Assembly: GCA_047602425.1 (NCBI GenBank)
Contig: JASGHG010000001.1
Span: forward strand, 512,001-576,000
Reading direction: 5' to 3'
Length of the DNA stretch: 64,000 nt
Source of the DNA: Nibricoccus sp.
GTDB lineage: Bacteria > Verrucomicrobiota > Verrucomicrobiia > Opitutales > Opitutaceae
The notes under the pieces are model-generated. The model was given only the letters and a program-made list of their open reading frames with translations, searched no databases and was not told the DNA's origin. Below are positions 40,386 to 62,348 of this stretch, in pieces. The stretch's first letter is position 1. Every line of letters begins with the position of its first letter. The translations under genes and the position numbers were made by a program.

Positions 40386-40569
40386 GATGGATGTACTTTG
40401 CCTATACTGTTCTTCCGGTCATCCTGCGACGATCCTCCAGTGAGGTCCTGACTCAGGGCTTGTCATTCGCCGCAATATCTAAAGGTTCGCTGGCTCACGG
40501 TCACAGGACGAGCGGAGGCTGAGTATAGTCAATACGAGGGCAATGAGGAGGTCCCGGCCTTTGATATCC

Positions 40570-41100
40570 ATGGCAATCGCAACTCTCAATCCTTCCTATC
40601 CGCGCCTACGCGGCAAAGTCGGCGGTCTCGTCTTCAAGCACTACCGCGACAAAGTGGTCGTCACCCGCGCCCCTATGTTTTCAGGCAAGTGGTCGGCAAA
40701 CCAACGCACTGGACGCAACCGTTTCGCTCAAGCTTCAGCCTATGCGCGCATGGTGCAGGTCGATCCGTTGCTCCGCGAGAAATATTCTACAATCGCCGCG
40801 CAACGCGGCCTAACCATTCGCTCAGCTGCCATTTCAGCTTATTTGAAAGGTGAAGCCTCCAAAATCGAAGTATCCCGGCAACCTCACCCATGCCTGAAAC
40901 GCAAGTGCCCCAAGCTGCGGAAAAACGCCTCTCCTCTGCCAGCAATCCCAAGCCGTCATCAAGCATTGAAAACCAGCTCAGCTTTGATCCGCCGCAGGAC
41001 CAATAATGGTCGCAAGCCAAGGCGTTTATCGTATGCACAGAGTCGTTTCATAAACTCCAGGTGGCTCCTTCAGTCTCACCGATCCTGGGAGCCTGGCTGA
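40570..41100 (+). CDS. Basic hypothetical protein with a GKVGGLVF motif (DUF6266-like N-terminus)
   Basis: LRGKVGGLVF..Y....VV.RAP...S.NQ...R.RF..A..YA pattern; the C-terminal half is not recognisable. Confidence 0.65.
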   Translation: MAIATLNPSYPRLRGKVGGLVFKHYRDKVVVTRAPMFSGKWSANQRTGRNRFAQASAYARMVQVDPLLREKYSTIAAQRGLTIRSAAISAYLKGEASKIEVSRQPHPCLKRKCPKLRKNASPLPAIPSRHQALKTSSALIRRRTNNGRKPRRLSYAQSRFINSRWLLQSHRSWEPG

Positions 41101-43462: not shown

Positions 43463-44347
43463 ATGAAACAAACTACAAGCAGCAGTTCCCTGAACAGCCT
43501 CTCATCGATGGTTGCGGACGCCTCGGAGAGGCGTCCCTACCGACGAACCTTGTTCAGCTGCCGCCTCGCGTTCGTGCTTGCGCTCTGCCTCGCCTGCTGG
43601 CCGGTGGCGCGGTGGTATGTGGCGCGCGTCAGCGATGGCTCGGATGAGCCGTGGGGGTTGGCCGCGTTGGTAGCAGCTTTGCTTTTCGCGCCGCGCGAGG
43701 GGTGGAATGAACCACTCGGTAGAGGTCGTCTGTGGATGCTGTGCGGGCTTCTGACGATTTATGTGGTTAACTTCCATTGGCTGCCGCCACTGGGGCATGC
43801 GCTTTTGTTTGTCACCGCGCTCGCCGTTGCGGTGAGCCGGCGTGGATTTCCGCTGGCTTGGTGGGGATTGTTGGTTTTGTCGCTACCGTTGATTGCAACG
43901 CTGCAGTTTTATCTGGGTTATCCACTGCGGCTCGCGACGACCGCGTTATGCGTGCCGCTTCTGCGACTGGGTGGTTTGTACGTCACAGCCGATGCCACCG
44001 CGCTGCGCTGGGCGGGCGAGATGGTTGTTGTCGATGCGCCATGCAGCGGAATTCATATGCTGTGGACCGGTCTGTTTCTCGCCGCGGCACTCGCGTGTTG
44101 GCAAAAACTCGACGGGCGTGGAACGCTGCGGCTGTTGCGTTGGGCAAGCGGGGCGGTCTTCGTCGCAAATGTACTACGCGCAACGGCGTTGTTTTGCATC
44201 GAGGCGAGGATCTGGCCGTCGCCGGCTTGGGCGCACGAGGGCGTGGGACTGGTGCTGTTCGGAGCGGCGTCGGGAATTATTTATTTCGCGAGTCAAAGCG
44301 GCGCGCCCGGCGGTCGCGCCCTACCTTCAAGGCAGACCGCCATATGA
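43463..44347 (+). CDS. Exosortase/archaeosortase family protein (XrtQ-like, VIT-associated)
   Basis: Multi-TM; catalytic Cys DAPCSG, Arg NVLR, His AHEGVG; DGSDEPWG motif; start uncertain (43463 or 43508). Confidence 0.88.
   Translation: MKQTTSSSSLNSLSSMVADASERRPYRRTLFSCRLAFVLALCLACWPVARWYVARVSDGSDEPWGLAALVAALLFAPREGWNEPLGRGRLWMLCGLLTIYVVNFHWLPPLGHALLFVTALAVAVSRRGFPLAWWGLLVLSLPLIATLQFYLGYPLRLATTALCVPLLRLGGLYVTADATALRWAGEMVVVDAPCSGIHMLWTGLFLAAALACWQKLDGRGTLRLLRWASGAVFVANVLRATALFCIEARIWPSPAWAHEGVGLVLFGAASGIIYFASQSGAPGGRALPSRQTAI
43516..43540 (-). repeat. GTAG-type REP element inside the exosortase 5' end
   Basis: Minus strand GTAG GGACGCCTC TCC GAGGCGTCC. Confidence 0.75.
44300..44324 (-). repeat. 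GTAG-type REP element inside the exosortase 3' end
   Basis: Plus strand GGCGCG CCCGGCGGT CGCGCC CTAC. Confidence 0.65.
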
Positions 44348-44892
44348 AAATCTCTCTGCTCTTTTTGAGCCTCTGTGTAGTCGCTGCATGGATACCGGCT
44401 TGGTCGCGATCGTCATATGAGGATGGAGCGTCAGCGGAAGCGTTTCCGGGTTGGAATGCCGCACCCGTCCCAAGCGACATGACGCCTTTGACGCCGGGGG
44501 AACGCGAGGCGCGTTTCGCGGCGGGCTTTCCAGGAAAAATCGGCGTGTTCACCGATGGCGAGCGGACGTACGTCCTTCGCTGGGTGTGCTCGCCAACACG
44601 GAAACTTCATCCCGCCGCCGATTGTTTGCGTGCGCTCGGTTACGGCGTAAAGCCGACGCCGATCTTCGCCGAGGCCAATGGAGCACGTTGGGGTACGTCG
44701 CGCGCGCAACGCGGCCAGGAAGAGCTGCGCGTGCGCGAGCGGATCGTCGACTCAGCGGGGAATGCGTGGACCGACGTGTCGGCGTGGTACTGGTCCGCAA
44801 CGCTGGGCCGCAGCGCGGGACCGTGGTGGGCCGTCACGATTTTCGAGCGGCCAAACCATGGCCGTAAAAACGAACCATTTTACAGAAGTTAA
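44344..44892 (+). CDS. Exosortase-associated EpsI-like periplasmic protein
   Basis: ATGA overlap with exosortase; N-terminal hydrophobic segment; TRKLHPAADCLRALGY fits an EpsI-type HxxxxCxxxxG motif. Confidence 0.7.
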   Translation: MKISLLFLSLCVVAAWIPAWSRSSYEDGASAEAFPGWNAAPVPSDMTPLTPGEREARFAAGFPGKIGVFTDGERTYVLRWVCSPTRKLHPAADCLRALGYGVKPTPIFAEANGARWGTSRAQRGQEELRVRERIVDSAGNAWTDVSAWYWSATLGRSAGPWWAVTIFERPNHGRKNEPFYRS

Positions 44893-45004
44893 CGAAGGAA
44901 ACAAAGAGTCTCACCTCGTGCCTTGTCTGGGCTCCATGCGTGGACCTGAAAAAACGAGCCGGACATACCAACATTGCTTCATTCCCTTCGTTCTCTTCTG
45001 TTAA
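44878..45004. repeat. ~125-bp inverted-pair element with 9-bp periodic arms
   Basis: Left TTTTACAGAAG TTAACGAAG GAAACAAAG; right CTTCATTCC CTTCGTTCT CTTCTGTTAA. Confidence 0.75.
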
Positions 45005-45086
45005 CCAGCTCGAAAATCCACCGGTCTTACCAATGGTGATTTAGCAGAAAATCAAGGTGGAGCGCGTTGACCTGACTTGCACCCCA

Positions 45087-45254
45087 CCCAAGGCTGTCCT
45101 GTCGCAGCCCAAGCCTCTGCTGCAAATGTCCGGGATACCCCTGCGCACACCCATGGTACAATTGTCGCGACCCATGGTACGCTTCTTCAAGCCCAAGGGT
45201 CGTTTGATCGGACCCATGGTCGCTCTGTGCGAACCCATGATCCAGTTGCAACCG
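45087..45254. repeat. 8 x 21-bp degenerate tandem array (CCCAWGG-N5-YTG-N6)
   Basis: Cores at 45087, 45108, 45129, 45150, 45171, 45192, 45213, 45234. Confidence 0.8.
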
Positions 45255-45368
45255 ATAAGGAGTTCCCGGATGCAACGTAATTCAACATGACAAAACTGGC
45301 GCGCTGCGAAGGTTGACGTCACACAATTGTTGCGGGCCAAGTGGGATCTGCGTTCTTTCCGTTTCTGC

Positions 45369-46109
45369 TTACTCTCGATCCTCGCGCAGCAGATGTCCGA
45401 GGATGCGTTCCCGACTGTTCAAGAAATCGCGAGTGACCCGAAAATGATCGGTCTGCTCATATTCCACTCGTTCCATGCCGTTCGGACCCACTTCATAAAT
45501 CGTCGCATCGGGGAATCCCATGAGGATTGGAGAATGAGTGGCCATGATCACCTGTGATTTTTCGGCGAGAAGTCGCTGCAAAATCACCAAGACGCTCAAC
45601 TGCCGCTTCGGCGACAAGGCCGCCTCGGGTTCATCGAAAATATAGAGCCCGTTTCCTCGGAGGCGGTTTTGCAGCAAGGCAAGGAATGCTTCGCCGTGCG
45701 ATTGTTCATGCAGGGATTTTCCACCGTAACTAGCGTGATGAGCCAAATCGAGACGCTCCACCTCCGTGGCCATGCCATAGAAACTTTCAGCGCGGAGAAA
45801 AAAACCGTCCGTCGGCCGACGCACACCTTTTTCCAAGACCAGACATTCGTTCAACGACGAATGGGTTTCTTTGGTGCGAAATCGGAAATTCTTGCTGCCG
45901 CCCTCAGCGTTAAAACCCCACTTCACCGCAATCGCTTCGATCAACGTCGATTTCCCGACACCATTTTCTCCGATGATCGTGGTGAGGCCCGGAGCAAATT
46001 CGAGTCTTTCGAGGTGACGAACCGCGGGAACGCAGAATGGATACGTCTCAGGCGACGCTACCTTTCTTCGATCAAGTCGGATAGCGCGCAAAAAGCCGTG
46101 ATCCTTCAT
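45369..46109 (-). CDS. AAA/ABC-type ATPase (COG3910-like)
   Basis: GENGVGKST, GFNAEGGS, FFLRAESF, QSHGE, FDEPEAALSP, ATHSPIL. Confidence 0.9.
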   Translation of the reverse strand: MKDHGFLRAIRLDRRKVASPETYPFCVPAVRHLERLEFAPGLTTIIGENGVGKSTLIEAIAVKWGFNAEGGSKNFRFRTKETHSSLNECLVLEKGVRRPTDGFFLRAESFYGMATEVERLDLAHHASYGGKSLHEQSHGEAFLALLQNRLRGNGLYIFDEPEAALSPKRQLSVLVILQRLLAEKSQVIMATHSPILMGFPDATIYEVGPNGMERVEYEQTDHFRVTRDFLNSRERILGHLLREDRE

Positions 46110-46542: not shown

Positions 46543-46567
46543 GGGGAAGACGGAATTAAACGATCCG

Positions 46568-46691
46568 TTTTACAGAAGGCAACTAGGGGAACGAAGCGTC
46601 ACCGGAGAAAAGGCATCGCTCCTGCATGGCTTGGAAACTCGACGGGGAAAAACTACCGGCTCTTCGTTTCCTTCGTTATCTTCTGTTTAAA
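46568..46691. repeat. ~125-bp inverted-pair element with 9-bp periodic arms
   Basis: Left TTTTACAGAAG GCAACTAGG GGAACGAAG; right CTTCGTTTC CTTCGTTAT CTTCTGTTTAAA. Confidence 0.75.
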
Positions 46692-46714
46692 GAGATCGGA
46701 AAACAAAAACCTTC

Positions 46715-46840
46715 TTACAGGAGAAAACCGAGGGAACGAAGAAGGAAGATCGGGGTCGCCGTTTTTTCGCTCTCCCACGTTGATGAGCAACTGCAATGGC
46801 TGTCCGCTCCTCCTTCGTTGCCTCTATCTCCTCCTGTAAA
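46715..46840. repeat. ~125-bp inverted-pair element with 9-bp periodic arms
   Basis: Left TTACAGGAG AAAACCGAG GGAACGAAG; right CTTCGTTGC CTCTATCTC CTCCTGTAAA. Confidence 0.7.
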
Positions 46841-48371: not shown

Positions 48372-48841
48372 TTTGAAAAACGTTTCCTCAATTCGGCCAT
48401 TTCGAGGGCCGCACGCGCGAACTCGGCGCCGCGGTTGATTTTTCCGAGGCAACGATCCTCGGCTTGTTTCAGGTTTTCGGCAACCACCACGCCGTTAATC
48501 ACCGCAATGCGGCTGTCGAGGGCAACGCGCATGAGACCATCGCCGGAGGCTTCGGCGACGAGTTCGTAGTGTTTCGTATCGCCACGAATAATCACGCCAA
48601 GGGCAACGATCACGTCGGGCTTGGTCGCGGAAGCGAGCCACTGGGCGGCGCTGGGAAGTTCGTTCGAGCCGGGCACACGGTAGACGCGGATTTTTTTCTC
48701 GGGCACGCCCGCTGAACGCAGTTGTTCGAACACTTGGTGCAACAACGCGTCGACCAGCGTCGGGTTGTAACGCGCCGCCACGATGCCGACCGAAAGGCGG
48801 GCACCGTCAACAGTCACTTCATGTGGAGCATCGAGACTCAT
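48368..48841 (-). CDS. ribH: 6,7-dimethyl-8-ribityllumazine synthase
   Basis: IVAARYN, VPGSNELP, LGVIIRGDTKHY; 4-bp overlap with nusB. Confidence 0.95.
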   Translation of the reverse strand: MSLDAPHEVTVDGARLSVGIVAARYNPTLVDALLHQVFEQLRSAGVPEKKIRVYRVPGSNELPSAAQWLASATKPDVIVALGVIIRGDTKHYELVAEASGDGLMRVALDSRIAVINGVVVAENLKQAEDRCLGKINRGAEFARAALEMAELRKRFSK

Positions 48842-49077
48842 GCGAGGAACTGTTCTGTCTGCGCGCCGACCGTGCAAGGAGCAAACTCTTTTCTGAAGCC
48901 AGGAAAAAACCTCTTCCAAGCCCTCGCACACTATGCCGCGTAACGCAGCCGGACAGGGAGAAGCCCGTCGAAATATTTTCTTGCACTCGTGTCCGAATTT
49001 CTTCCGTTATGACCTCGCTGGTGCGCTCACACCCACAACACGAGCCTCAGCAAATACCCCAACAACCAACCCCAGCC

Positions 49078-51135
49078 ATGCATAATACGCACGGAAAAAT
49101 CCGGCGCATTGCGTTCACGCTTTGCGCTATCCTTACAGCAGCGGCCTCGTCCGCTTTCGGCGCCATCGCCTTCGATGCCGTTGCCACCAAGACGGCCACC
49201 AACGCCAGTTCCGTCACGTGGTCCCACACGGTCGGCACCGGCACCAACCGCATCCTCCTCGTGAGCCTGGCTACCGAGGATACGAGCACCACCGTGCTGA
49301 ATCCGTCGGCCGTCACGTTTGGTGGCGTTGCGATGACCGCAGTTCCCAGTGCGACCGCAACCGCCGGTTCGAGCACTTTCGATCGGACGCAGCTCTACTA
49401 TTTGCTCAATCCGACTTCGGGCATAGGCACGGTCTCTGTGACCTTCGGCGGCGCCGTCAATGGCGTCACCGCTGGCTCCGTTTCGCTCTCCGGCGCAACT
49501 CAGTCCGCTCCGGCCGGTTCCACCGCAACTGCCACGTCAGGCAACACGATCTCCAAGGCCACGACGGTTTCCACGGCCGGTTCCTGGCTCGTCGACGTCG
49601 CTTGCTCGGGCGCTTCGAGCTCAACCTTAACTCAAGGTTCGAGCCAAACCAAACGTTGGGGCGTCTCCACCACCAATAACGGCGGTGCGGGCTCCACCCT
49701 CGCCACATCCGCCACCGGCTCCTTCACCAACTCGTGGACGGCTTCGAGTTCCAGCCAGCTCGCGCTCTCCGTCGCGGTGCTCACGCCGGCCTCTTCCGGC
49801 GGTTCATCGAGCAGTTCCTCGTCTTCGAGTTCTTCTTCGTCGTCGAGTTCCTCCAGTTCCTCGTCGTCGTCGAGCTCCAGCAGCAGTTCTTCCTCTTCGA
49901 GCTCAAGTTCGTCCTCCAGCAGTTCGTCGTCGAGTTCCGGTTCCGGTAGCTCTGGCATCATCTACGTTTCCCCGAGCGGCACCGATTCGAATCCCGGCAC
50001 GCTGGCCGCTCCGACGACCTTGACGGCAGCCATCGCCGAAGCCGCACCCGGTGACACGATCTACATGCGCGGCGGTACCTACAACTACTCCACCACCATT
50101 ACGATCGCCTTCGGCAACAACGGCACTTCGAGCGCCACGAAAAAAGTCTTCGCCTACGCCAGCGAAGTCCCTGTGCTTAACTTCTCCGCCCAAGCCACCG
50201 CCGACGCCAACCGCGGCGTCCAGCTCTTCGGCAACTACTGGCACTTCAAAGGCATCACGATTCAGAATGCCGGCGACAACGGCATGATGGTTGGCGGTAA
50301 TAACAACACGATCGAGCGTTGCATCTTCAAGGGCAACCGCGACTCCGGCCTGCAGATTTCCCGGCGCGCCAGCAGCCTCACCAGCATGTCCGACTGGCCC
50401 TCGAACAACCTCATCCTCAACTGCGATGCGTTCGACAATGCCGATCCCACCGCCGAAAACGCCGACGGTTTCGCCTGCAAACTCACCAACGGCCCCGGCA
50501 ACGTCTTCCGCGGCTGCATCTCCCACCACAATATCGACGACGGCTGGGACCTCTATGCCAAGACCGACACCGGCCCGAACGGCTCCGTCCTCATCGAAAA
50601 TTGCATCGCCTATGGCAATGGTACGCTAACCAATGGTTCCACCACAGGTAGCGGCGACAAGAACGGCTTCAAGCTCGGCGGCTCCGGCGTCGACGTCGTG
50701 CACACCATCCGGCGCTGCATTTCGTTCAACAACGGCCACCATGGTTTCACCGACAACAACAACCAAGGCGCCATGACGGTCCTCAACAACACCGCGTTCA
50801 ACAATACCAATTCCAACTTCAATTGGCGCGATGGCAGCACCTCGACGTTCACCAACAACGCCTCGTACAATTCTGGCGATTCCGACAAGTTCGTCGGCAC
50901 GCTCACTGGCACGACCAACCTTTTCTGGGTCAATGATGCCAGCAGCAACAATGGCGGCACGAAGGTGATTTCCGCCGCCGACTTCCAGAACCTCACCGCT
51001 CCCTCCGGCGGCTTCTCGCGCAACAGCGACGGCAGCATCAACCTCGGCACGTTCGCCAAGCTCGTCTCGACGAGCGACCTGGTGAACGCCGGCACGCCTT
51101 CCGGCACGGACATTGGTGCCGTCGAGAGTTACTAA
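49078..51135 (+). CDS. Secreted PL9-like pectate lyase (beta-helix) with uncharacterised N-terminal domain and poly-Ser linker
   Basis: Signal peptide; IYVSPSG.D.NPGT, GDTIYMRGGTY, ENADGFACK, DDGWDLY, GDKNGFKLGG. Confidence 0.88.
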   Translation: MHNTHGKIRRIAFTLCAILTAAASSAFGAIAFDAVATKTATNASSVTWSHTVGTGTNRILLVSLATEDTSTTVLNPSAVTFGGVAMTAVPSATATAGSSTFDRTQLYYLLNPTSGIGTVSVTFGGAVNGVTAGSVSLSGATQSAPAGSTATATSGNTISKATTVSTAGSWLVDVACSGASSSTLTQGSSQTKRWGVSTTNNGGAGSTLATSATGSFTNSWTASSSSQLALSVAVLTPASSGGSSSSSSSSSSSSSSSSSSSSSSSSSSSSSSSSSSSSSSSSSSSSSGSGSSGIIYVSPSGTDSNPGTLAAPTTLTAAIAEAAPGDTIYMRGGTYNYSTTITIAFGNNGTSSATKKVFAYASEVPVLNFSAQATADANRGVQLFGNYWHFKGITIQNAGDNGMMVGGNNNTIERCIFKGNRDSGLQISRRASSLTSMSDWPSNNLILNCDAFDNADPTAENADGFACKLTNGPGNVFRGCISHHNIDDGWDLYAKTDTGPNGSVLIENCIAYGNGTLTNGSTTGSGDKNGFKLGGSGVDVVHTIRRCISFNNGHHGFTDNNNQGAMTVLNNTAFNNTNSNFNWRDGSTSTFTNNASYNSGDSDKFVGTLTGTTNLFWVNDASSNNGGTKVISAADFQNLTAPSGGFSRNSDGSINLGTFAKLVSTSDLVNAGTPSGTDIGAVESY
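49162..49792 (+). repeat. Duplicated ~630-bp domain, copy 1
   Basis: AIAFDAVATKTATNASSVTW...SQLALSVAV, near-identical to 51310-51940. Confidence 0.9.
49804..49938 (+). repeat. Poly-serine linker (about 45 Ser)
   Basis: Mixed TCN/AGY codons. Confidence 0.95.
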
Positions 51136-61250: not shown

Positions 61251-62348
61251 ATGCAATTGACCAAACATTGGGCCGCCGTTCTCAACGATTACGTGATCGA
61301 CCTCGCGTGGTCGCCCGACGGCACACAACTCGCCGCCGCCTCCGCCGCCGGACCTGTATCCATTTTCAAGGGACAAGATGGCGCCAAACTTCACGAACTC
61401 CCTGGCCACGACGATGGCACGAACTGCCTCGCCTGGCGGCCAGAAGCCGGAAGTCAGAAGCCAGAGGCCAGAAATCAGAAAACAGAACAGACGCCTCCGA
61501 ATAGCGACCTAGCCGCTGGCCTCCGGCCTCTGACTTCTGGTTCCACCCTCGCCACCGGCGGGCAGGATGGAAAAGTTAAACTCTGGGACCCCACCGCCGG
61601 CCAGCACACCGCCACTGCCGAACTCGGCAATGCCTGGATCGAGCATCTTGCCTGGCGGCCCGACGGCGCAACGCTCGCCGCCGCCGCTGGACGGGAACTC
61701 TTTTTCCTTAACGCCGATGCTTCGCTTCGTCATCGCTTCAAGCCCGCGCCCAAAACACTGTCTGCCATTGCCTGGCAGCCCAAGGGCGGTTGCCTCGCCG
61801 CGGCGTATTTCGGCGGCGTTTGCCTGTGGGATGCCGACGATTTCATCGCTCAAAAAGAATACGCCTATGGCAACGGCATCCACGCCCTCGTCTGGTCACC
61901 CGATAGCAAATGGTTGGTCTCCGGCAATCAGGACCCGAGCGTGCACCTCTGGGTGCCCGAGACCGATCTCGAACTCAACATGAGCGGATACGAAGGCAAG
62001 GTGAAGGAACTTTCCTACGACCGAACCAGTCGCTGGCTTGCCACGGGCGGCGGCAAGGACGCTTGCATTTGGGACTGCTCGGGCGACGGCCCCGAGGGAC
62101 GCGAGCCGCTGATGTTTCCGCACGATGCCAAAGTCTGTGCGGTCGCTTTCCAGCGCTCGCATGGCTTGCTTGCCAGCGCTTCGCAGGACGGCACGCTCAT
62201 GCTCTGGAGTCCGGACCGCAAACAGCCGCTGATGGCCACCGTGCGCATGCCCACGCCTGCCACAAAACTCAGTTGGTCACCCAATGACGAACTTCTCGCC
62301 ATCGGCAGTGAAAAAGGCGCCGTCTACGTGCTGCGGTGCGAAAACTAA
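61251..62348 (+). CDS. WD40-repeat protein
   Basis: LAWSPDG, LATGGQDGKVKLWD, WSPDSKWLVSG, LASASQDG. Confidence 0.9.
   Translation: MQLTKHWAAVLNDYVIDLAWSPDGTQLAAASAAGPVSIFKGQDGAKLHELPGHDDGTNCLAWRPEAGSQKPEARNQKTEQTPPNSDLAAGLRPLTSGSTLATGGQDGKVKLWDPTAGQHTATAELGNAWIEHLAWRPDGATLAAAAGRELFFLNADASLRHRFKPAPKTLSAIAWQPKGGCLAAAYFGGVCLWDADDFIAQKEYAYGNGIHALVWSPDSKWLVSGNQDPSVHLWVPETDLELNMSGYEGKVKELSYDRTSRWLATGGGKDACIWDCSGDGPEGREPLMFPHDAKVCAVAFQRSHGLLASASQDGTLMLWSPDRKQPLMATVRMPTPATKLSWSPNDELLAIGSEKGAVYVLRCEN
61441..61539. repeat. Inverted pair of heptamer arrays in-frame inside the WD40 gene
   Basis: 7 x CAGAAGC-like units at 61441-61489 and 4 reverse-complement units at 61512-61539. Confidence 0.8.

What the first reader, a model, noticed from the sequence alone, without database searches (positions are those of the whole stretch)
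45087..45254. 8 x 21-bp array with a conserved core and variable spacers
Seen: exact 21-bp phasing of CCCA(A/T)GG-N5-(C/T)TG-N6, with the N positions different in every unit, about 80 bp from an inverted-pair element. It is open in frame on both strands (+: P[MK]xxLxx; -: [HL]GxxQxx, ORF 45027-45275). The CCC-to-TCC change is synonymous only on the minus strand, which weakly favours that frame, but near-invariant CCC suggests nucleotide-level constraint. Inference: a heptad-repeat microprotein, a phased protein-binding array (21 bp is two helical turns), or a processed repeat-spacer RNA. It is too short-period for CRISPR.
Basis: partly seen in the sequence, partly recalled or inferred. Interest (0 to 1): 0.72.

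Follow-up and report, generated by a model that had tools for sequence, protein, structure and literature searches.

The report
Orphan two-turn DNA repeat array
This row of eight 21-base repeats is real and likely non-coding: it is a gene-less copy of a repeat row that in a related bacterium sits just in front of a small all-helical protein gene, and it is likely a landing track for that protein, which would supply a testable partner for a known but unexplained class of bacterial repeats.

Summary
The 8 x 21-bp array is real. It is one of 29 mostly intergenic 21-bp arrays in this genome. Ten lie upstream of unannotated all-helical protein genes; 19, including this one, are orphans. A ~120-aa family has an upstream 21-bp array at 45 of 61 metagenome loci and downstream at 0 of 44. 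This array's sequence class has five copies in three genomes. One sits 190 bp upstream of a frameshifted ~220-aa helical gene; another is fused to a remnant of it. No coding or RNA-hairpin signal was found. The short protein is a predicted antiparallel homodimer with an ~80-A helix, and 31 of 56 of its arrays are palindromic, against 0 of 9 for longer partners. Best reading: a DNA landing track for a rod-shaped protein, here orphaned; binding is untested. The repeat class is published without a partner (PMC8161180). This scan noted the module before, in this genome and on other DNA.

The parts
45087..45254 (.). Core array, 8 x 21 bp, consensus CCCAWGGt.c..YTG...... on +. Judged by the gene-linked homologue, the missing partner gene would lie to the left, on the minus strand.
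   Evidence: class and orientation
45066..45086 (.). Worn edge unit, one base out of phase; resembles the first unit of the homologous array in G004 (L184)
   Evidence: by eye; the unit-order test ours vs G004 gave P 0.12
45255..45275 (.). Worn ninth unit, in phase (AAGG core kept)
44868..45012 (.). Context, not part of the array: REP-like inverted pair of a separate dispersed family. It lies where the leader and partner gene lie in gene-linked copies.
44344..44892 (+). Context: left flanking gene (downstream of an exosortase gene), pointing at the array. Its orthologues in G001 and G002 have no array downstream.
45369..46109 (-). Context: right flanking gene, AAA_21-type ATPase, pointing at the array. 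Its closest G004 match has no array downstream.

Best explanation
The array is a gene-less copy of a 21-bp repeat row that in a related genome lies 190 bp upstream of a ~220-residue all-helical protein gene, and it is likely a double-stranded DNA landing track on which that predicted rod-shaped protein would line up, one rod per two helical turns. Shown: the period, the sequence class, the gene link of the class, the lack of a coding or hairpin signal, and the tight association of such arrays with these gene families. Predicted: the fold and dimer of the partners. Inferred: direct binding; autoregulation of the partner gene or local DNA organisation at complete cassettes; and at this locus either a cassette relic (short, worn, no gene remnant, no same-class partner gene found in this genome) or a dispersed site read in trans. 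I put relic at about 60% and working site at about 40%.
For: (1) Association. The 21-bp score is about 0.50 or more within 600 bp upstream at 8 of 12 family genes in this genome, against 36 of 4145 of all called genes. Two more have arrays further off, one displaced by an IS66-like insertion. In relatives: 13 of 26 loci upstream, 0 of 26 downstream at 0.50. In metagenomes: 45 of 61 upstream, 0 of 44 downstream at 0.45, best period 21 in 53 of 61. (2) This class. Profile similarity to the gene-linked G106 array L293 is 0.77, against 0.28 +/- 0.08 (max 0.47) for 56 unrelated arrays. L290 is the same array fused to a 23-codon remnant of the gene (iE 0.014). (3) Not coding. (4) DNA rather than RNA hairpin. 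Dyad arrays show 3016 complementary cells against 2992 +/- 24 in shuffles, no wobble excess, and loop-less palindromes. (5) Partner shape. The short family has helices 10-25, 37-90 and 95-99, pLDDT 96, basic N-terminal arm and C-terminal tail, and a predicted antiparallel homodimer, score 0.75 against best control 0.00. That mark was reached by 20 of 30 solved homo-pairs and 1 of 23 single chains; the runs agree in at least 96% of contacts, partner pLDDT at least 88. The long helix is about 81 A; 21 bp is 71 A. The long family models as two such helix sets in one chain. (6) Symmetry match. Arrays of the homodimer family are palindromic in 31 of 56, arrays of the longer proteins in 0 of 9 (Fisher P 0.002); this array is not palindromic (P 0.59), as its long-family link predicts. 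(7) Orthologues keep array class and odd units across species.
Against: No binding, expression or DNA-complex test was possible. No known DNA-binding fold was recognised (inconclusive). The gene link of this class rests on one frameshifted gene and one short remnant in one genome, plus a more distant array before an intact gene (0.49 to this array, 0.76 to the G004 orphan). No gene remnant lies beside this array, its sibling or the G004 orphan. The 9 long-family arrays are not independent: two are clear orthologues (82% protein identity), and three belong to proteins only weakly or not alignable to the core family. 5 of 13 long-family loci had no upstream array at 0.50, and one had a downstream signal of 0.57. 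The two halves of the long protein do not align by sequence (E 0.093), and only its second half resembles the short family (probability 51-54%). 25 of 56 short-family arrays are not palindromic. Linkage alone explains why similar proteins have similar arrays. In the P[MK]xxL frame the class has 1 stop in 64 units against 6.3 by column shuffle (P 0.006), though 2.5 by the dinucleotide null (P 0.29).
Confidence: 0.6

Rival explanations
1. The array works as RNA: a repeat leader or separate non-coding RNA, possibly cut into 21-nt units, which the helical protein coats or uses as a guide.
For: Constant orientation upstream of the gene, basic protein tails, and unit order conserved between dispersed copies of other classes. 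Dispersal of array-only copies with sharp edges would suit an RNA intermediate. Bacillus coagulans satellites (usually 52-nt repeats) are reported as transcribed (PMC8625621, passages).
Against: No compensatory pairing or G-U excess, and loop-less palindromes. Fold z-score -1.4. No Rfam match at E 1. No promoter-like site. No nuclease or reverse transcriptase recurs beside the cassettes. The period equals two turns of B-DNA.
Confidence: 0.13
2. A neutral minisatellite: the 21-bp rows arise by slippage or as a by-product of how the cassette moves, and nothing reads them.
For: Unit consensus turns over fast (similar only above about 60-75% protein identity). Unit gain and loss occur between copies. 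This copy is short and worn, and the site is empty in two congeners. Orphans avoid divergent promoter gaps (0 of 19 against 214 of 703), as tolerated junk would.
Against: The period is 21 at 53 of 61 loci whatever the sequence or GC content. Position is fixed upstream of particular gene families. Symmetry tracks partner family. Odd units are kept between species.
Confidence: 0.11
3. The array is bound by some other host factor, as a far-upstream control region of the helical gene, and the helical protein does something unrelated to it.
For: Arrays end 58-745 bp before the start codon, where activator sites could lie. Co-location does not show which protein binds.
Against: Array sequences differ completely between cassettes in one genome, which would need a different host factor for each. 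No regulator recurs nearby, and a sigma-54-like motif occurs in 1 of 56 leaders.
Confidence: 0.09
4. The array encodes a heptad-repeat microprotein (+ strand P[MK]xxLxx, 45057-45290, or - strand 45027-45275).
For: Both frames are open here. The P[MK]xxL frame has only 1 stop in 64 units over five copies, fewer than a column shuffle gives (6.3, P 0.006). Antisense frames are slightly more often open than a column shuffle predicts (30 of 56 against 22.6 +/- 2.6; 40 against 31.8 +/- 3.6 open frames in this genome).
Against: Both excesses vanish with a dinucleotide-preserving null. 33 of 56 oriented arrays have all sense frames closed and 26 of 56 all antisense frames closed, with no period-3 component in conservation. 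Third positions of the Pro and Leu codons are the most fixed columns while Pro/Leu and Lys/Arg/Met vary. The coding score is at most 0.12 per codon against a gene median of 0.34. No Pfam hit. The wobble test had little power, because coding controls scattered from 0.17 to 1.52.
Confidence: 0.07

Closest known systems
Constant-size (20-21 nt), variable-sequence bacterial tandem repeats (Subirana and Messeguer, PMC8161180; abstract, introduction, part of methods and passages read. Their J Bacteriol 2020 paper, PMC7549362, was not held.)
   Same: 21-bp unit, sequence differs between families within one genome, generally non-coding. The authors note two helical turns and propose a protein that polymerises on the DNA.
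   Different: No partner gene is named in the passages read ('upstream', 'adjacent' and 'hypothetical' occur 0 times). Here the arrays are tied to specific helical-protein genes, with orphans as copies of gene-linked classes. Units here are far more worn (about 50% identity).
Plasmid centromeres and iterons with their binders: parC-ParR, tubC-TubR, omega heptads, 21-22-bp Rep iterons (recalled, no call)
   Same: Helically phased, degenerate sites just upstream of the gene for a small basic protein, which is likely to spread along them and autoregulate.
   Different: No partition ATPase/GTPase or Rep recurs beside the cassette. Chromosomal, many different cassettes per genome. The predicted partner is a long antiparallel helical rod, not visibly ribbon-helix-helix or winged-helix. 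One plasmid record, no viral hit.
CRISPR, TIGR and VIPR arrays (periods 60-79, 18 and 5 nt; bioRxiv 10.64898/2026.10.21.760802, sections 2.3 and 4.22 and passages read)
   Same: Fixed core alternating with variable bases, next to one protein gene.
   Different: Period 21; no effector family recognised in the partners; variable positions are scattered and biased, not free spacers. That survey lists no 21-nt class, but it removed periods that are multiples of 3 with a lag-3 peak.
REP/BIME and MITE dispersed intergenic elements (review PMC3184786, passages only)
   Same: Dispersed, lineage-specific, enriched between convergent genes (9 of 19 against 101 of 703), often next to REP-like elements.
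   Different: Direct tandem units, no inverted arms around the array, no transposase linked.
NCBIfam NF052641 'PQLLE family protein' and Pfam DUF6261 (names only)
   Same: All-helical proteins of unknown function. One array-linked protein hits NF052641 at E 1.7e-7; the Atlas model of a long-family protein aligns to a DUF6261 cluster at TM 0.51.
   Different: Both are under the bar for membership (31 bits against a cut-off of 80; Atlas score under the bar).

Membership tests
Constant-size 20-21-nt bacterial tandem repeats (Subirana and Messeguer) | Unit of 20-21 nt, at least four repeats, at least 60% of equal length | tested here: met
   8 of 8 units exactly 21 bp
Constant-size 20-21-nt bacterial tandem repeats (Subirana and Messeguer) | Several families of different sequence but the same unit length in one genome | tested here: met
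   29 arrays, seven multi-copy classes plus singletons
Constant-size 20-21-nt bacterial tandem repeats (Subirana and Messeguer) | Generally not coding for amino-acid repeats | tested here: met
   (the wobble sub-test was uninformative)
Constant-size 20-21-nt bacterial tandem repeats (Subirana and Messeguer) | Detectable with the authors' SATFIND settings | not tested
   program not available; TRF misses this array
CRISPR array | Near-identical repeats with long unique spacers, period about 60-79 nt | tested here: not met
   period 21, 50% unit identity; period range
TIGR-Tas | 18-nt periodicity and a Tas protein alongside | tested here: not met
   lag-18 identity 0.23; no Pfam family above cut-off in nine partner proteins
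VIPR | 5-nt GGY/NN units | tested here: not met
   lag-5 identity 0.26; definition
Plasmid centromere / iteron systems | Helically phased degenerate sites upstream of the binder's gene | tested here: met
   met for the module, not for this orphan copy
Plasmid centromere / iteron systems | Binder with RHH or winged-helix fold | tested here: inconclusive
   models are long-helix rods; fold searches give only generic helical matches
Plasmid centromere / iteron systems | Linked motor NTPase or replication initiator | tested here: not met
   no neighbour family shared by more than 2 of 56 loci (many contigs are short)
Plasmid centromere / iteron systems | Direct, cooperative binding of the linked protein | not testable with these tools
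   needs EMSA, footprinting or ChIP
REP/MITE | Terminal inverted repeats around the element | tested here: not met
   no inverted arms bracket 45087-45254 among the 25 longest pairs shown; homology of sister classes ends at the array edges
REP/MITE | Target-site duplication against an empty site | not tested
   empty sites in G001 and G002 are not syntenic beyond the left gene
Type III toxin-antitoxin (RNA repeat array before a toxin gene; recalled) | Near-identical structured RNA repeats and a known toxin family | tested here: not met
   no covariation, no Rfam hit, no PADLOC hit for three partners

The most novel reading that the evidence does not exclude
The array is a working, dispersed site of an undescribed bacterial DNA-address system. 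Each small rod protein (a symmetric dimer for palindromic rows, a fused two-lobed chain for direct-repeat rows) polymerises in two-turn steps on its own private 21-bp code. Array-only copies spread to convergent gene ends, where the filament acts as a roadblock, insulator or nucleoid anchor. This would give thousands of natural orthogonal protein-DNA pairs built on a plain helical rod.
Probability: 0.25. Interest if true: 0.85.

Novelty: new variant of a known kind. Interest (0 to 1): 0.6.

Why it matters
Bacterial tandem repeats of fixed 20-21-nt size and variable sequence are published as enigmatic, with a polymerising protein proposed but not named (PMC8161180). The data here name candidate proteins and pair each with its own array class. 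They also add a sharp prediction: array symmetry follows partner architecture (31 of 56 against 0 of 9). One gel-shift series with cognate, swapped and re-spaced arrays would settle it. If true, it is a new DNA-recognition mode and a large set of orthogonal sites (1753 clusters at 50% identity for the short family alone). This particular copy is short, worn and gene-less, so it is a poor entry point, but it shows how orphans relate to gene-linked rows.

Tried and rejected
blastn of the array region in 40 relatives found only the REP-like pair, not the array. Two arrays with a CCAAGG core lie upstream of helical genes in Prevotellaceae and Treponema (L037, L073). I first read them as fixing orientation, then rejected this, because the true homologue L293 points the other way. 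The phylum-wide pattern search gave only G000 and G004 as true arrays among the hits inspected (6 non-self loci inspected). Sequencing runs: none was listed, which is no evidence. Viral contigs: no relative. Rfam: nothing. Promoter and terminator scan at chance level. PDB sequence search: nothing better than E 0.03. Fold searches gave generic helical matches only (best Z 6.7, rmsd 3.2, 63 aligned for the short family; Z 9.3, rmsd 3.3, 97 aligned for the long family). The wobble-position test was rejected as underpowered. Sigma-54 motif: 1 of 56. Internal duplication of the long family was not shown by sequence. The long family was found in only 2 of 401 phylum genomes and 5 of 301 genomes of another phylum, which limits the symmetry test. 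Nine paper searches found no description of the array-plus-gene module; subscription journals are mostly not covered. The Minerva preprint (10.64898/2026.09.22.753630) was seen only as abstract and outline. Supplements of PMC8161180 were not opened and those of the bioRxiv papers are closed; either could list these arrays or their neighbours. Gene calls outside the window are my own hexamer-based calls, so the orientation counts are approximate. Of 43 candidate arrays inspected, 14 covered by called genes were dropped and 29 kept, two of them overlapping weak ORF calls.

Full report
OBSERVATION. The window is G000:C1:512001-576000 of a complete 5.16-Mb, 57% GC genome. Eight gap-free 21-bp units lie at 45087-45254 with four invariant columns and an autocorrelation peak at 21, 42 and 63. 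Inter-unit identity is 0.50, the highest stretch in the window, against at most 0.374 in 100 codon shuffles. The array lies between two convergent genes, an unannotated gene after an exosortase gene and an AAA_21 ATPase. The inverted pair 80 bp to the left belongs to a separate dispersed family with 18 matches in this genome and matches in 11 of 40 relatives; the array itself had no blastn match there.

A GENOME-WIDE CLASS. A period scan gave 142 clusters. I inspected 43 and kept 29 that are not inside well-supported genes. They differ in consensus and fall into classes. Ten lie upstream of, and co-oriented with, unannotated all-helical genes: a ~120-aa family with a GxRxSERK tail, and longer proteins of 170-250 aa, none with a Pfam or NCBIfam match above cut-off. 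Eight of 12 such genes score about 0.50 or more within 600 bp upstream, against 36 of 4145 called genes. One more has its array 536 bp away, one is separated from it by an IS66-like insertion, and two score 0.44. The 19 orphans are often copies of gene-linked classes. In class A the three copies are colinear unit by unit (P at most 0.003 against unit shuffles) and homology stops at the array edges. Orphans lie between convergent genes in 9 of 19 cases and divergent genes in 0 of 19, against 101 and 214 of 703 gaps; complete cassettes are in divergent gaps in 4 of 12 (my own gene calls).

BEYOND THIS GENOME. The short family has 1753 clusters at 50% identity and occurs in 13 of 120 family genomes. 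Arrays lie upstream at 13 of 26 of those loci and downstream at none. Of 81 further loci (80 metagenomic, one plasmid), 61 were distinct with at least 600 bp upstream: 45 of 61 score 0.45 or more, the best period among 8-41 is 21 in 53 of 61, and 0 of 44 score downstream. Arrays have 6-23 units and end 58-745 bp before the gene. Consensus is shared only between proteins above about 60-75% identity, and no neighbour gene recurs. Orthologues in a congener keep the class and its odd units.

THIS ARRAY'S CLASS. Five copies were found: this one, a sibling of about 16-20 units at G000:1468525, a 23-unit orphan in G004, and two in G106 (three of 161 family genomes, plus one hit that looks like a coding repeat). 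In G106 L293 the array starts 190 bp upstream of a frameshifted ~220-aa gene of the long family, on the strand opposite to the CCCAGG reading. L290 is the same array fused directly to a 23-codon remnant of such a gene, a decayed cassette (iE 0.014; E 0.007 by tblastn). Profile similarity of our array is 0.83 to the sibling, 0.78 to G004, 0.77 to L293 and 0.68 to L290, against 0.28 +/- 0.08 for 56 unrelated arrays. An intact long-family gene in G004 has a related array (0.76 to the G004 orphan, 0.49 to ours). No gene remnant lies beside our copy. The site is empty downstream of the left gene's orthologues in G001 and G002.

NOT A PROTEIN. Among 56 oriented arrays, 23 have an open sense frame (column shuffle 22.6, dinucleotide null 30.9) and 30 an open antisense frame (22.6 +/- 2.6 and 35.1). 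Conservation has no period-3 component. The P[MK]xxL frame has 1 stop in 64 units: fewer than a column shuffle gives (6.3, P 0.006) but not fewer than the dinucleotide null (2.5, P 0.29). Its third positions are the most fixed columns. The wobble test was underpowered. No frame shows a consistent synonymous excess between copies.

DNA RATHER THAN RNA. 32 of 56 arrays have dyad symmetry (31 on rerun). Their units show no compensatory pairing (3016 against 2992 +/- 24 of 5825 cells in 29 arrays) and no wobble excess, and many dyads have no loop. This is the pattern of operators, not hairpins. Our array folds no better than shuffles (z -1.4). No expression data could be examined.

THE PARTNERS. 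The short protein models at pLDDT 96 as a short helix, a 54-residue helix and a short helix with basic ends. It is predicted to form an antiparallel homodimer: score 0.75 against best control 0.00; the mark was reached by 20 of 30 solved homo-pairs and 1 of 23 single chains; contact agreement at least 96%, pLDDT at least 88; the model supports binding and does not show it. From the listed contacts, each end of the rod would carry one chain's basic arm and the other's basic tail (inference). The helix spans about 81 A; two turns of DNA span 71 A. The long family models (pLDDT 86, pTM 0.51) as two successive short-long-short helix sets. Its second half resembles the short family (probability 51-54%), but its halves do not align to each other. 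Natural tandem fusions of the short family exist. Fold searches are inconclusive. The symmetry test then gives 31 of 56 palindromic arrays for the homodimer family and 0 of 9 for the longer proteins (Fisher P 0.002; about seven independent, three of uncertain kinship; 5 of 13 long-family loci lacked an array at the cut-off). Our array and its class are non-palindromic, as their link predicts.

MECHANISM. Most likely (0.6), each cassette is a row of DNA sites plus the gene for a rod that binds them cooperatively at one rod per two turns, with private, fast-evolving specificity. Autoregulation and local DNA organisation are the likely outputs; all of this is inferred. This copy is an orphan, more likely a relic (like L290) than a working site, since no same-class partner gene was found in this genome. 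The sharp edges and placement of orphans in other classes keep the working-site reading open. Rivals: RNA (0.13), neutral repeat (0.11), another host factor (0.09), microprotein (0.07).

PRIOR KNOWLEDGE. The repeat class matches the constant-size 20-21-nt repeats of Subirana and Messeguer, who note two helical turns and propose a polymerising protein but name no gene in the parts read. That paper came to me from earlier notes of this scan. A 2026 periodicity survey reports no 21-nt class but filtered multiples of three. Nine searches found no description of the module. Comparisons with ParR/TubR/iterons and type III toxin-antitoxin systems are recalled. Earlier agents of this scan described the same module in this genome and on other DNA; those notes are not counted as evidence.

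VERDICT. Real; a new variant of a known but unexplained repeat kind, with a testable candidate partner; interest 0.6.

Noticed in passing
window 44868-45012 and 46558-46840: REP-like inverted pairs of a 9-bp-period family on both sides of the ATPase/UPF0047 gene pair; 18 matches in this genome and matches in 11 of 40 relatives.
   Followed up: partly
window 40564-41100 (+): Unannotated basic ORF with no Pfam, NCBIfam or PADLOC hit and one paralogue at G000:4863589-4864227; neither has a 21-bp array upstream (0.32, 0.30). A resemblance to DUF6266-type proteins is recalled, not tested.
   Followed up: partly
window 45257-45317: An AAGGAG in the worn ninth unit precedes an ATG and a 6-codon tail of the + frame; a second 9-codon ORF follows. 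Probably chance.
   Followed up: no
window 61439-61487: Seven-base repeat (GCCAGAA, 5 copies; also scored at period 21) found by TRF.
   Followed up: no
window 45369-46109 (-): Stand-alone AAA_21 ATPase with partial hits to many defence-system ATPase models; no partner nuclease gene beside it.
   Followed up: partly
window 49785-49900: The second-best period-21 signal of the window is the poly-serine linker of ORF 48823-51135, not an array.
   Followed up: yes
   Followed up: yes
G000:C1:4543756-4543946 and 4823052-4823241: Two distant orphan arrays are 95% identical over 191 bp, a recent partial copy; one end abuts a ~90-bp dispersed REP-like element that also flanks several other arrays.
   Followed up: partly
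proteins P0003, P0005, P0007, P0012, P0049: Natural tandem fusions of two short-family units; a ready test set for the symmetry rule.
   Followed up: no
protein P0016; G000 4441910-4442785 and 917615-918844: Where an array happens to be open in frame with its gene, gene callers can add a spurious heptad N-terminal extension; in-frame openness is at chance level (11 of 56 against 9.6).
   Followed up: yes
L037:869-1534 and L073:3-305: 21-bp arrays with a CCAAGG core upstream of a third kind of helical gene (no Pfam hit for L037) in Prevotellaceae and Treponema; many similar orphan arrays in other phyla.
   Followed up: partly
G000:C1:994007-994137, 2561746-2561876, 3647006-3647136: Three short-family genes share a conserved ~130-bp leader with a GC-rich hairpin although their arrays differ.
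   Followed up: no
L297 (G576): Long-family gene with no upstream array but a period-21 signal of 0.57 in the last 1400 bp of the locus.
   Followed up: no
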